The notes under the pieces: model-generated | What the model was told of the DNA's origin: nothing | The model's database searches: none | Seen by the model: the letters and a program-made list of their open reading frames with translations, nothing else | Shown: positions 4,333 through 6,090 of the stretch, piece after piece | Numbering within the stretch: position 1 is the stretch's first letter | How the letters are laid out: every line of letters starts with the position of its first letter | Source of the DNA: Escherichia phage Lilleven | Sequence record: MK629527.1 | DNA: 6,090 bases | Reading direction: 5' to 3' (one strand) | Translations under genes and position numbers: made by a program

Positions 4333-5331
4333 ATGTTTGGAAGTATCATTGGAGGCATTGGCTCATCGCTGCTCGGAGGACTTGCTTCCGGCGGTATCTC
4401 CAGCCTCCTTAATAAAATGTTCAGTAAAATGCCAGAACATGCCGCTTCTTCTGCTGGTCTTACTAATGGTCAAGGTACTATTGGTATGGATACTGATGCT
4501 GGTATTCAGTCTGCTATTCAGGGCTCTAATGTTCCTCCTGCTGGTCAATTACCCGCTTCCAACACTTCTGGTGTTATGGCTGATGCTGGTAATATGATTC
4601 GTAATGCTGGCAGAGCTTTGCTTGATGGTACGATTCAGGCCGGTTCTGACAAGGTTAAAGAGGCTCTTATTGATAAGTTGGTTGGAGGTAATGATGCTAA
4701 AGACCGAGGAAAGGCAACCCGTGATTACTTGGCGGCAGCTTTCCCTGAGCTCAACCCATGGGAACGTGCTGGAGCTGGTGCTTCCACTGCCGGGTTAGAA
4801 TCTTCTGCTCAGAATCAACAAAAAGAGATGCTTAAAATGCAACTGGATAACCAGAAAGATATTGCAAAAATGCAGATGGATAACAATTTGCAGATTGCTG
4901 GTATTCAGTCTGCTACATCTCGCCAGAACACGAAGGATTCTGTTTATGCCCAGAATGAGATGCTTCAGTATAATCAACGTGAGTCGCAGGCACGCGTTGC
5001 GTCTATCCTCGCCAACACTGACCTTACGACTAAGCAGGCCACCCATGAAATTATGAGGATGGCTCTTACTCGTGCTCAGGAAACCGGTCAGCATTTGACT
5101 AACTCTCAGATTATGGCTTTGGAGAAAAAGGTTTATGCAGAAATTGGAAAAATTCATCAAGATACTCAAAATTCTCGCTATGGTAGCTCTCAAGTTACTG
5201 CCGCCGCGAAAGACGTTACTAACATGATTACTGACGCTTCTTCAGGTTTTGCTGATTGGGCTTCCCAGCAGTGGAATTCGTTCTTTAAAGATGGTAAGTC
5301 TGACGGTATTCCTCTCAATACTAGAAAATAA
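4333..5331 (+). CDS. H: DNA pilot (minor spike) protein H
   Basis: 332-aa ORF. Gly-rich N-terminus MFGSIIGGIGSSLLGG.. and long collinear matches to phiX174 H (AGIQSAIQGSNVP, TRDYLAAAFPELN.WERAGA, KMQLDNQK.IA.MQ, IAGIQSATSRQNTKD.VYAQNEML.Y.Q.ES.ARVASI, QNSRYGSS). SD AAGGAG 4319-4324. Confidence 0.93.
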   Translation: MFGSIIGGIGSSLLGGLASGGISSLLNKMFSKMPEHAASSAGLTNGQGTIGMDTDAGIQSAIQGSNVPPAGQLPASNTSGVMADAGNMIRNAGRALLDGTIQAGSDKVKEALIDKLVGGNDAKDRGKATRDYLAAAFPELNPWERAGAGASTAGLESSAQNQQKEMLKMQLDNQKDIAKMQMDNNLQIAGIQSATSRQNTKDSVYAQNEMLQYNQRESQARVASILANTDLTTKQATHEIMRMALTRAQETGQHLTNSQIMALEKKVYAEIGKIHQDTQNSRYGSSQVTAAAKDVTNMITDASSGFADWASQQWNSFFKDGKSDGIPLNTRK

Positions 5332-5358
5332 TTGTTGACATTCCTTGAACCTTTATGT

Positions 5359-5396
5359 GACTCTTGCTTCAATAAAACGAAGTAGGAGTCTTTTTT
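5359..5396 (+). terminator. Rho-independent terminator-like hairpin downstream of H; 3' arm contains the SD of the next ORF
   Basis: GACTCTTGCTTC (5359-5370) pairs with GAAGTAGGAGTC (5379-5390): 12 bp including two G.U pairs, loop AATAAAAC, followed by TTTTTT (5391-5396). The 3' arm contains AGGAG (5384-5388) and the ORF ATG follows at 5397. A perfect -35 hexamer TTGACA sits at 5335-5340. Confidence 0.6.
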
Positions 5397-5765
5397 ATGA
5401 AACCCGCTCACCGCCTTTATCATCCTGTGCTTGGTTCTTGGTTGTTTAAGTGTCCCGTTTATATTCGTTATGAGTCCCTTCATCATGGCCGCCTCATTAA
5501 GGTTCGTGCTGTTCGTGACCTTTCTCCGCGTCAGCAGTTGATTGCCAATCCTAAAAATTGCTTTGACGTTGTTATTGCTGAAATTGACGTTACTCACCTT
5601 TCTGTCACTTGGTATGATTTTCAAGCCGAAGAGTATGTCGAGTGTGATTCCGGCACTATGGAGCTTCTTCTTTCTCAGGTAAATTCTGGCGAGGTTATTC
5701 GCTCCTCCGAAGACCTGTTTGTTGATGTTGATGATATGGAATGGCTTTATGAAATTGTGGAGTAA
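5397..5765 (+). CDS. Hypothetical protein (122 aa) in the H-A intergenic region; no recognisable family
   Basis: ORF with SD AGGAG (5384-5388) 8 nt before ATG. Codon usage by eye matches the phage's structural genes (T-ending codons cgt, gtt, ctt, tct, gct, gat). Same strand as all known genes. Translation MKPAHRLYHPVLGSW...DVDDMEWLYEIVE has an acidic C-terminus and no motif I recognise. Confidence 0.5.
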   Translation: MKPAHRLYHPVLGSWLFKCPVYIRYESLHHGRLIKVRAVRDLSPRQQLIANPKNCFDVVIAEIDVTHLSVTWYDFQAEEYVECDSGTMELLLSQVNSGEVIRSSEDLFVDVDDMEWLYEIVE

Positions 5766-5768
5766 GTC

Positions 5769-5858
5769 ATGGAAACTGTTATTGGAAAATTTATTGCTCT
5801 GGCCGTTGTTGCTCTTATGCTGTATGGAATTTCTCGCTTGATTCGGAGGTTCCCGTGA
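5769..5858 (+). CDS. Hypothetical small membrane peptide (29 aa, single predicted transmembrane helix)
   Basis: Not in the ORF track. ATG 5769 is 3 nt after the stop of the preceding ORF and 6 nt after GGAG (5759-5762). METVIGKFIALAVVALMLYGISRLIRRFP: about 17 hydrophobic residues followed by a basic tail. Very short, so chance is not excluded. Confidence 0.3.
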   Translation: METVIGKFIALAVVALMLYGISRLIRRFP

Positions 5859-6031
5859 AATATTTTAGTTTTGTAGATGAACATTATGCTTACTGCCCTG
5901 ATACAAGGATTTTGCACATCACTCGCAGTCGTATTTCTGACCCTCGGTATGAGCGTTGCTTTCTTACTGACGAGGAGCATCTTGCACTTTTGGATTGGTT
6001 GAAAAATTATCCAACTTTCATTAATTCTTGA
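5855..6031 (+). CDS. Hypothetical protein (58 aa), GTG start overlapping the upstream stop (GTGA)
   Basis: Not in the ORF track. GTG 5855 overlaps the TGA of the 29-codon ORF, with GGAGG (5845-5849) 5 nt upstream. Translation (M)KYFSFVDEHYAYCPDTRILHITRSRISDPRYERCFLTDEEHLALLDWLKNYPTFINS; T-ending codon bias like the rest of the genome. Stop TGA 6029-6031 overlaps the -35 hexamer of the promoter before A. Confidence 0.35.
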   Translation: MKYFSFVDEHYAYCPDTRILHITRSRISDPRYERCFLTDEEHLALLDWLKNYPTFINS

Positions 6032-6057
6032 CAGACCTTTAAAATACCCTCTATATT
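6028..6057 (+). promoter_or_regulatory. Candidate sigma70 promoter for gene A (P_A)
   Basis: TTGACA (6028-6033), 18-nt spacer, TATATT (6052-6057): consensus -35 and near-consensus -10. Located about 35-60 nt upstream of the gene A ATG if the window is circular (position 6090 joins position 1). Confidence 0.55.
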
Positions 6058-6087
6058 GCCCTCATAGTTTCACTACGAGGGCTTTTT
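6058..6087 (+). terminator. Terminator-like hairpin plus T5 between the P_A -10 and the A start codon (T_H-like)
   Basis: GCCCTC (6058-6063) pairs with GAGGGC (6077-6082), plus inner TAG/CTA pairs (6065-6067 vs 6073-6075), then TTTTT (6083-6087). The 3' arm contains GAGGG, the likely SD for A. The 5' arm starts right after the -10, so P_A-initiated transcripts would probably lack it. Confidence 0.5.
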
Positions 6088-6090
6088 CGC

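What the first reader, a model, noticed from the sequence alone, without database searches (positions are those of the whole stretch)
5855..6031. 58-codon GTG-initiated ORF whose stop overlaps the -35 of the gene A promoter
This ORF is invisible to the ORF track. It starts at a GTG overlapping the preceding stop (GTGA) with a strong GGAGG 5 nt upstream, and ends with a TGA that overlaps the TTGACA -35 hexamer of the promoter before A. This economical overlap of coding and regulatory sequence is typical of microvirus genome compression and argues that the ORF is constrained rather than accidental.
Basis: seen in the sequence. Interest (0 to 1): 0.5.

Follow-up and report, generated by a model that had tools for sequence, protein, structure and literature searches.

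The report
Conserved small orphan gene in alpha3-like phages
The 58-codon reading frame is a real gene under purifying selection, the last of three small genes lying in what reference annotations of alpha3-like microviruses call the H-A intergenic region; what its protein does is unknown.

Summary

The window is an alpha3-like microvirus, almost certainly Escherichia phage Lilleven, whose record already lists this ORF as a hypothetical protein (QBZ71504.1). The other 25 alpha3-group records annotate nothing there.

Across 26 distinct alpha3-like genomes:
- The frame is open in all of them, with no internal indels. It is 58 codons in 24; phiK has 70 and L017 has 56.
- The start codon is GTG in 17 and ATG in 9.
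- Substitutions fall 33/20/86 by codon position (p = 3.5e-12).
- pN/pS is 0.21 in frame, against 0.97 and 1.61 in the other + frames.

AlphaFold2 gives a confident model (pLDDT 83) of four beta-strands followed by a helix. No homolog turned up outside this clade among 1.84 billion representative proteins, and nothing matched in Pfam, PHROGs, NCBIfam, PADLOC or Rfam. Fold searches gave no specific match.

ORF58 closes a conserved trio (122-aa protein, 29-aa membrane peptide, ORF58) bounded by two terminator-like hairpins.

It is a real, clade-restricted orphan gene, probably translated by coupling to ORF29. Its function is unknown. The stop/-35 overlap is real but is not itself evidence of constraint.

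The parts
5855..6031 (+). ORF58 coding sequence: 58 codons plus TGA, GTG start. Product: VKYFSFVDEHYAYCPDTRILHITRSRISDPRYERCFLTDEEHLALLDWLKNYPTFINS.
   Evidence: Open in 26 of 26 relatives. Codon-position bias 33/20/86. pN/pS 0.21. AlphaFold2 pLDDT 83. 100% identical to QBZ71504.1.
5845..5849 (+). Shine-Dalgarno GGAGG, 5 nt upstream of the GTG. It is encoded by the Arg-Arg codons (CGG AGG) of ORF29.
   Evidence: All 17 GTG-start genomes carry an SD here: GGAGG in 16, GAGG in phiK. It is replaced by AGGA about 8 nt upstream in the 9 ATG-start genomes. Annotated as a ribosome binding site in the old alpha3 record M25640. The initiation region 5835-5875 is unstructured.
5855..5858 (+). GTGA start/stop overlap: ORF58 start GTG and ORF29 stop TGA.
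   Evidence: The tetranucleotide NTGA is present in all 26 genomes, as GTGA in 17 and ATGA in 9. In ID32, ORF29 ends a few bases earlier.
5769..5858 (+). ORF29: a 29-aa single-pass hydrophobic peptide, METVIGKFIALAVVALMLYGISRLIRRFP. Its SD is GGAG at 5759-5762.
   Evidence: Called as a gene in metagenomic contigs. Very low nucleotide diversity.
5397..5765 (+). ORF122: first gene of the trio, with a basic N-terminal half and an acidic C-terminal half that includes a hypervariable stretch.
   Evidence: pN/pS 0.27. Codon-position bias 100/58/293. AlphaFold2 pLDDT 89. Homologs found only on contigs up to about 6.3 kb, the size of an alpha3-like genome or smaller.
5359..5396 (+). Terminator-like hairpin (5359-5390) plus a T6 run, directly after gene H. 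The SD of ORF122 (AGGAG, 5384-5388) lies in its 3' arm.
   Evidence: -17.9 kcal/mol, z = -5.65.
6028..6033 (+). TTGACA, predicted -35 of the gene A promoter. It contains the ORF58 stop codon (6029-6031).
   Evidence: ORF58 stops inside TTGACA in 24 of 26 genomes. phiK has TTGGCA instead. L017 keeps the hexamer but stops a few bases upstream of it.
6052..6057 (+). TATATT, predicted -10, 18 nt after the -35.
   Evidence: TATATT in 21 genomes at this spacing and TATAGT in 2. Deleted in NC35. phiK (no TTGACA) and L017 were not scored by the tally, but both show TATATT. The spacer sequence diverges while its length is kept.
6058..6087 (+). Hairpin (6058-6082) plus a U5 run, between the predicted promoter and the gene A ATG. 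The gene A SD (GAGGG, 6077-6081) lies in its 3' arm.
   Evidence: -14.2 kcal/mol, z = -4.79. Conserved across 12 genomes, with one compensatory pair.

Best explanation
ORF58 is a genuine protein-coding gene of alpha3-like microviruses (genus Alphatrevirus). It is the last gene of a conserved three-gene accessory module, ORF122-ORF29-ORF58, which fills the 759-nt region between genes H and A that reference annotations leave empty.

Shown here: the frame, its length, a start codon with a matching Shine-Dalgarno sequence and the NTGA junction are kept across the clade, and the amino-acid sequence is under purifying selection.

Inferred mechanism of expression: the module has no recognisable promoter of its own. 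It would be transcribed on + strand mRNAs that read through the hairpin after gene H and end at the hairpin before gene A. ORF58 would be translated from its own SD in an unstructured initiation region, and probably also by termination-reinitiation coupling to ORF29 through the GTGA/ATGA overlap.

The product is a small soluble domain of four beta-strands plus a C-terminal amphipathic helix, with an arginine-rich beta3-beta4 hairpin.

Inferred function, at low confidence: an accessory, non-structural protein that acts with its two neighbours on a host or competitor target. Candidates are superinfection exclusion, host takeover or anti-restriction. It is unlikely to be a core replication or assembly factor, because phiX174-like and G4-like phages lack it.

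The stop codon lies in the -35 of the gene A promoter simply because the frame runs on into TTGACA.

The confidence given applies to 'real, translated, selected gene within a three-gene module'. Any specific function carries a confidence below 0.2.
For: - Identity and context: the window is 78-94% identical to alpha3-group genomes across the H-A region. Gene H ends at 5331 and gene A starts at 1.
- Open frame: no internal indels in 14 reference genomes, 6 metagenomic genomes and 6 more contigs anchored on gene A, independently of the cassette. The length is 58 codons in 24 of 26.
- Start signals: GTG with GGAGG (GAGG in phiK) at 5 nt in 17 genomes, ATG with AGGA at about 8 nt in 9 genomes.
- Selection: parsimony changes by codon position are 33/20/86, p = 3.5e-12, while the flanking non-coding stretches give 15/14/16 and 20/14/20. 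pN/pS is 0.10 over 14 genomes and 0.21 over 20, against about 1.0-1.8 in the other + frames. Bona fide genes give H 0.28, D 0.13 and A 0.08.
- Fold: AlphaFold2 pLDDT 83, pTM 0.64.
- Initiation region: unstructured, -2.5 kcal/mol, z = +1.3.
- Independent gene calls: all three ORFs are called in metagenomic contigs between Microvir_H and Phage_GPA.
- Clade restriction: only alpha3-like hits in 5.8 billion clusters, in 1.84 billion representatives and by tblastn against 50,697 phage records. The H-A region DNA has no match in E. coli genomes.
- Flanking hairpins.
Against: - There is no direct evidence of expression: no proteomics, ribosome profiling or genetics for any alpha3-like phage was found in the literature held.
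- The post-H hairpin looks like a strong terminator and no promoter was found for the module, so expression could be low.
- Against the four most divergent genomes alone, ORF58 pN/pS rises to 0.38.
- Two natural variants alter the C-terminus (phiK 70 aa, L017 56 aa), so the tail is dispensable or those sequences contain errors.
- The sample is 26 fairly close genomes with shared ancestry and recombination.
Confidence: 0.85

Rival explanations
1. The region is a conserved non-coding cis-element, for example an RNA or ssDNA structure or a replication or packaging signal. The open frame would be a by-product.
For: Nucleotide diversity in 5855-6031 is fairly low, 0.10-0.15. The H-A region of phiX174 harbours cis-acting effects, the 'reduction sequence'.
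Against: Substitutions show a three-base periodicity in exactly this frame, and synonymous divergence is high (pS 0.33), the opposite of nucleotide-level constraint. The RNA fold is no better than shuffles (z = +1.0). No Rfam match. The start codon switches between GTG and ATG with a matching change of SD.
Confidence: 0.03
2. ORF58 is translated, but only the act of translation matters. It would be a regulatory upstream ORF that tunes the gene A promoter, terminator or translation, and the peptide itself would have no function.
For: It ends 59 nt before the gene A ATG, its stop lies in the predicted -35, and the hairpin that sequesters the gene A SD lies just downstream.
Against: The amino-acid sequence is strongly conserved: 24 invariant positions in 9 sequences at 72-90% identity to the window protein, and pN/pS 0.19 for codons 2-50. 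The protein folds confidently. A ribosome stopping at 6031 would not reach the hairpin at 6058 (geometry read; inference).
Confidence: 0.05
3. The conserved gene is really the antisense ORF 5747-5980 (minus strand, 77 aa), and ORF58 is its shadow.
For: The antisense frame is open in 16 of 20 genomes and shows a lowered pN/pS of 0.38.
Against: It is interrupted by stops or a frameshift in NC3, ID32, L017 and L020. Its wobble positions coincide with those of ORF58, which explains the lowered ratio, and the ORF58 ratio is lower still (0.21). By established knowledge of Bullavirinae, microviruses transcribe only mRNAs of + strand sense. The only minus-strand promoter-like site near the region is a weak 9-of-12 match (6034-6006) that lies downstream of the antisense ATG at 5980.
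Confidence: 0.01
4. ORF58 is a decaying remnant of a cassette acquired by the ancestor of the alpha3 group. It is still open but no longer functional.
For: It has no homologs and no known function. Its neighbour ORF122 is frameshifted in the St-1 record and in the old alpha3 record X60322. The C-terminus varies in phiK and L017.
Against: There are 86 third-position changes against 20 second-position changes with no disruption in 26 genomes, and a neutral sequence at this divergence would have accumulated stops as the other frames have. The alpha3 frameshift is absent from the resequenced genome DQ085810.2, so it is probably a sequencing error.
Confidence: 0.04

Closest known systems
QBZ71504.1 / UniProt A0A4D6DYU6, hypothetical protein of Escherichia phage Lilleven (MK629527)
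   Same: 100% identical over all 58 residues, on a 6090-nt contig. Lilleven is described as a 6090-bp Alphatrevirus with 9 CDS. This is almost certainly the same locus.
   Different: It is only an automatic 'hypothetical protein' call. There is no description, evidence or discussion in the paper, and no counterpart is annotated in the other 25 alpha3-group records.
Small accessory genes of Bullavirinae (genes K and E of phiX174, G4 and alpha3)
   Same: Small (56-91 aa in phiX174, by established knowledge), non-structural, on the + strand, tightly packed, with start/stop overlaps that suggest translational coupling.
   Different: K and E are overprinted inside other genes and occur in all three genera. 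ORF58 occupies its own sequence space, is confined to the alpha3 group and matches no Pfam family. The canonical genes on related contigs carry Pfam microvirus families and the trio carries none.
Moron-type accessory cassettes of tailed phages
   Same: A compact group of small orphan genes, including a membrane peptide, inserted between core genes and bracketed by terminator-like hairpins. It is absent from sister lineages.
   Different: No cassette-specific promoter was detected. The host genome here is a 6-kb ssDNA microvirus. No donor sequence was found in phages, E. coli genomes or 1.84 billion representative proteins. The two bracketing modules resemble each other, which suggests a local duplication.
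N-terminal beta-sheet plus helix of OmpR/ToxR-type winged-helix DNA-binding domains (PDB 8b4b_W)
   Different: Only a sub-structure aligns, at 13% identity. Mago nashi and arylamine N-acetyltransferases score the same, so the match is generic topology. No Trans_reg_C Pfam hit, and the protein is too short to hold a recognition helix and wing.

Membership tests
Bona fide protein-coding gene (as opposed to a chance ORF) | The reading frame is kept open, without frame-breaking indels, in diverged relatives. | tested here: met
   26 of 26 genomes at 78-95% nucleotide identity. 24 have exactly 58 codons. The exceptions are phiK (stop lost, 70 codons) and L017 (1-nt insertion 8 codons from the end)..
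Bona fide protein-coding gene (as opposed to a chance ORF) | Purifying selection on the encoded protein: third-position excess and dN/dS well below 1, in this frame only. | tested here: met
   Codon positions 33/20/86, p = 3.5e-12. pN/pS 0.21 against 0.97 and 1.61 in the other + frames. Comparable to gene H at 0.28.
Bona fide protein-coding gene (as opposed to a chance ORF) | Conserved translation-initiation signals. | tested here: met
   GTG with GGAGG (GAGG in phiK) at 5 nt in 17 genomes, ATG with AGGA at about 8 nt in 9 genomes. The initiation region is unstructured.
Bona fide protein-coding gene (as opposed to a chance ORF) | The protein product is detected in infected cells. | not testable with these tools
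   No proteomic or ribosome-profiling data for alpha3-like phages were found in the literature held.
Translationally coupled gene pair (stop/start overlap) | The upstream stop overlaps or abuts the downstream start. | tested here: met
   GTGA or ATGA in all 26 genomes. In ID32, ORF29 stops a few bases earlier.
Translationally coupled gene pair (stop/start overlap) | Downstream translation depends on upstream translation. | not testable with these tools
   This needs reporter fusions with and without an early stop in ORF29.
Sigma-70 promoter of gene A | -35 and -10 hexamers at 16-18 nt spacing, conserved while the spacer sequence drifts. | tested here: met
   TTGACA-18-TATATT, 11 of 12 matches. 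Both hexamers are kept at this spacing in 23 of the 26 genomes (TATATT 21, TATAGT 2), with at least five different spacer sequences. L017 also shows TTGACA and TATATT, though the tally did not score it. phiK has TTGGCA, and NC35 lacks the -10.
Sigma-70 promoter of gene A | A mapped transcription start. | not testable with these tools
   No transcript map for alpha3-like phages is available here. A start at about 6064, inside the 5' arm of the hairpin, is an inference from the hexamer positions.
OmpR/ToxR winged-helix DNA-binding domain | A helix-turn-helix recognition helix and a C-terminal wing, and a match to the Trans_reg_C profile. | tested here: not met
   [not shown]
Canonical microvirus gene families (A, B, C, D, E, F, G, H, J, K) | Sequence similarity to a Pfam or PHROG microvirus family. 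| tested here: not met
   No significant Pfam or PHROG hit. On related contigs the canonical genes carry Pfam families and the trio carries none.
Known defence-system proteins (PADLOC models) | A match to a PADLOC model or a named NCBIfam family. | tested here: not met
   No hits at E <= 1.
Structured non-coding RNA | An Rfam match or a fold more stable than shuffled sequence. | tested here: not met
   No Rfam match at E <= 1. z = +1.0 for 5855-6031.

The most novel reading that the evidence does not exclude
Alpha3-like microviruses carry a conserved, clade-specific three-gene accessory module of orphan proteins: a bipolar basic/acidic 122-aa protein with a hypervariable acidic stretch, a 29-aa membrane peptide, and the 58-aa beta-plus-helix protein. 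On this reading the textbook eleven-gene inventory of Bullavirinae is incomplete for this genus. The module would be a host-interaction or competition system, such as anti-restriction, anti-defence or superinfection exclusion, that helps explain why this lineage, unlike phiX174 and G4, grows on E. coli K-12 and B backgrounds.
Probability: 0.2. Interest if true: 0.65.

Novelty: new member of a known kind. Interest (0 to 1): 0.42.

Why it matters
Bullavirinae are the textbook minimal-genome phages, and phiX174 has been declared fully annotated by synthesis (PMC6883844). Papers as recent as 2026 still describe alpha3-group genomes as carrying only the 11 canonical genes, and the reference records leave about 12% of the genome (759 of 6090 nt) unannotated.

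Showing that this region holds three genes under purifying selection, of which ORF58 is one, corrects the annotation of a model phage genus. It also defines three orphan protein families with confident predicted folds, and gives a small, tractable target for finding out what accessory functions a 6-kb ssDNA phage can afford.

The kind of feature is ordinary: a small phage accessory gene with coupled translation. Gene callers already predict it.

Tried and rejected
- Function by homology. Pfam, PHROGs, NCBIfam, PADLOC and a PDB sequence profile gave nothing significant.
- Exhaustive HMMER over 1.84 billion representatives gave two extra hits, P0020 and P0021. On inspection one is a tandem-repeat translation and the other an Ig-like repeat protein whose scores are summed over many weak repeats. 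Both were rejected.
- Origin of the cassette. No match to the H-A region DNA in 5,426 E. coli genomes, and no ORF58 relative in other phages.
- Structured-RNA explanation. Rfam and fold z-scores were negative.
- Antisense gene. Broken in 4 of 20 genomes.
- A promoter for the module at TTGACA 5335-5340. No acceptable -10 was found.
- Literature. Rokyta et al. 2006 is not held, and the Kodaira alpha3 papers did not turn up in any search. The seven literature searches, one of them rejected by the tool, found no discussion of ORFs in the alpha3 H-A region.
- A wider natural sample. IMG/VR and JGI metagenomes added only 6 new genomes.

Full report
**What the window is.** The 6090-nt window begins at the gene A ATG. 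Gene H ends at 5331, and 5332-6090 is the H-A "intergenic" region. That region is 78-94% identical to the alpha3-group microviruses alpha3, NC3, St-1, NC35, ID62, WA45, WA13, ID21, phiK, NC28, NC29, ID32 and MG945254.

The ORF58 product is 100% identical to QBZ71504.1, "hypothetical protein [Escherichia phage Lilleven]", on a 6090-nt contig. Lilleven is described as a 6090-bp Alphatrevirus with 9 CDS (PMC7552041). The window is therefore almost certainly Lilleven.

**The observation.**
- GGAGG at 5845-5849, then a 5-nt spacer, then GTG at 5855-5857.
- TGA at 5856-5858 closes a preceding 29-codon ORF, giving GTGA.
- The ORF58 stop TGA at 6029-6031 lies inside TTGACA at 6028-6033.
- TATATT follows after 18 nt, for an 11-of-12 match to the sigma-70 consensus.

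The mechanical ORF list includes 5855..6031. Taken in this one genome, none of this is decisive:
- ORFs of 58 codons or more are common, even on the minus strand, which by established knowledge is not transcribed.
- GGAGG-N5-start occurs twice against 0.38 expected.
- TTGACA is not enriched, and it contains TGA, so it will stop any ORF in that frame.

**Comparative test.** I aligned the H-A region of 14 reference genomes. I then added six metagenomic alpha3-like genomes reached through ORF58 homologs, and six more contigs anchored on gene A, which is independent of the cassette.
- ORF58 is open in all 26, with no indel between the start and codon 50. It has 58 codons in 24. phiK has TGG instead of TGA and reads on to 70 codons. 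L017 has a 1-nt insertion 8 codons from the end.
- The start is GTG in 17 genomes, 16 with GGAGG and phiK with GAGG, 5 nt upstream. It is ATG in 9 genomes, with AGGA about 8 nt upstream. So the weak start codon goes with the strong SD and the strong start codon with the weaker SD.
- Parsimony changes by codon position are 33/20/86 (p = 3.5e-12). The two flanking non-coding stretches give 15/14/16 and 20/14/20.
- pN/pS is 0.10 over 14 genomes and 0.21 over 20 genomes, against 0.97 and 1.61 in the other + frames.
- Bona fide genes in a five-genome subset give H 0.28, D 0.13 and A 0.08. In that most divergent subset ORF58 gives 0.38.
- The antisense ORF 5747-5980 shares wobble positions with ORF58. 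It is broken in NC3, ID32, L017 and L020.
- The RNA folds no better than shuffles (z = +1.0), and Rfam finds nothing.

The ORF is a protein-coding gene under purifying selection.

**Context.** ORF58 is the third of three tandem + strand ORFs that fill the region.
- ORF122 (5397-5765) has AGGAG 8 nt upstream of its ATG.
- ORF29 (5769-5858) has GGAG 6 nt upstream. It encodes a single-pass hydrophobic peptide, METVIGKFIALAVVALMLYGISRLIRRFP.
- ORF58 follows.

All three are conserved, and gene callers predict all three between Microvir_H and Phage_GPA in metagenomic contigs. ORF122 has pN/pS 0.27 and codon-position counts of 100/58/293.

The SD of ORF58 is encoded by the Arg-Arg codons (CGG AGG) of the cytoplasmic tail of ORF29.

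The module is bracketed by two stable hairpins, each followed by a U-run:
- 5359-5390 (-17.9 kcal/mol, z = -5.65) directly after gene H, with the ORF122 SD in its 3' arm.
- 6058-6082 (-14.2 kcal/mol, z = -4.79) directly before gene A, with the gene A SD in its 3' arm.

No promoter for the module was detected. The model that follows is inference, not shown: + strand transcripts reading through the post-H hairpin carry the trio and end at the pre-A hairpin.

**The promoter claim.** The hexamers and their 18-nt spacing are kept while the spacer sequence diverges. At least five different spacers occur. That is a good phylogenetic footprint of a real promoter.

There are exceptions. phiK has TTGGCA. 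NC35 has a 29-nt deletion that removes the -10 and the 5' arm of the hairpin.

The stop/-35 overlap holds in 24 of 26 genomes, but it is weak evidence for coding constraint:
- The C-terminal 8 residues are the least conserved part (pN/pS 0.31 against 0.19).
- They have low model confidence: mean pLDDT 57 for residues 51-58, and below 50 for 56-58.
- Two natural variants end elsewhere.

The simplest reading is that the frame runs on until the promoter supplies a stop.

**The protein.** AlphaFold2 on nine homologs gives pLDDT 83 and pTM 0.64. The model has strands at 2-6, 9-14, 19-26 and 29-36 and a helix at 39-51. The 24 invariant residues include an arginine-rich beta3-beta4 hairpin (R18, R24, R26, R31) and the EEHxALxDWL helix.
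- No Pfam, PHROG, NCBIfam, PADLOC or PDB-sequence match is significant.
- In BFVD the only strong hit is the protein itself.
- In 5.8 billion clusters and 1.84 billion representatives the only true relatives sit on contigs no larger than an alpha3-like genome, most of them about 6 kb.
- tblastn finds it in every complete alpha3-group record, unannotated, and in no other phage. The H-A region DNA has no match in E. coli genomes.

**Function.** This is inference at low confidence. The module is absent from phiX174-like and G4-like phages, so it is unlikely to be a core replication or assembly function. An orphan trio containing a membrane peptide and a protein with a hypervariable acidic stretch (nucleotide diversity 0.4-0.48 at 5646-5720) looks like an accessory host-interaction or competition module. 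I cannot discriminate between superinfection exclusion, host takeover and anti-restriction.

**Novelty.** The ORF exists in databases as an unnamed hypothetical protein. It is not annotated in any classical alpha3-group record. A 2026 paper still lists only the 11 canonical CDS for an alpha3-like phage (PMC13029530). The old alpha3 gene H record M25640 marks ribosome binding sites at the positions preceding these ORFs, so early workers had noticed the signals.

I could not read Rokyta et al. 2006 or Kodaira et al. 1992, so an earlier textual mention cannot be excluded. The feature is a new, uncharacterised member of an ordinary kind: a small phage accessory gene with coupled translation.

Noticed in passing
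[not shown]
   Followed up: partly
window 5769-5858: ORF29 encodes a 29-aa single-pass hydrophobic peptide with a positively charged C-terminus. Synonymous divergence is unusually low (pS 0.12, against 0.32-0.44 in its neighbours), and 5736-5825 is the most conserved stretch of the whole H-A region (diversity 0.05-0.08). The RNA there is less structured than shuffles (z = +1.8), so the extra nucleotide-level constraint is unexplained.
   Followed up: partly
window 5332-5399 versus 6025-6090 plus the gene A ATG: The sequence just after gene H and the sequence just before gene A are parallel modules: TTnTTGACA, about 20 nt, a hairpin carrying the next gene's SD in its 3' arm, a U-run, then ATG. 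They align better than any of 500 shuffles (score 9 against -9.3 +/- 4.3). This suggests that the trio sits between duplicated copies of the ancestral H-A promoter/terminator module.
   Followed up: partly
window 6052-6082: With the -10 at 6052-6057, transcription from the predicted gene A promoter should start near 6064. That is inside the 5' arm of the 6058-6082 hairpin. Promoter-A transcripts would then lack the terminator stem and have a free gene A SD, while read-through transcripts from upstream would form the hairpin. This is inference only.
   Followed up: no
L007 (phage NC35), aligned to window 6035-6063: NC35 carries a 29-nt deletion that removes the predicted -10 of the gene A promoter and the 5' arm of the pre-A hairpin, yet it is a viable natural isolate.
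   Followed up: no
P0005 (ENA contig, 761 nt): This is a 78-aa predicted protein that fuses ORF29 residues 1-22 in frame to ORF58 from residue 6. It is either a natural deletion variant or an assembly artefact.
   Followed up: no
clusters of P0010 and P0008: The 90%-identity clusters of two ORF58 homologs also list a 450-aa M28 peptidase from Haladaptatus (P0014) and a 370-aa protein (P0016). These look like clustering artefacts.
   Followed up: no
window 4684-4696: The only other GGAGG-N5-ATG in the genome lies inside gene H, in the +1 frame of the 4604-4798 ORF. Its conservation was not examined.
   Followed up: no
window 5747-5980 (minus strand): A 77-codon antisense ORF stays open in 16 of 20 genomes. 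This is explained as a shadow of ORF58, because the wobble positions coincide, and it is broken in NC3, ID32, L017 and L020.
   Followed up: yes
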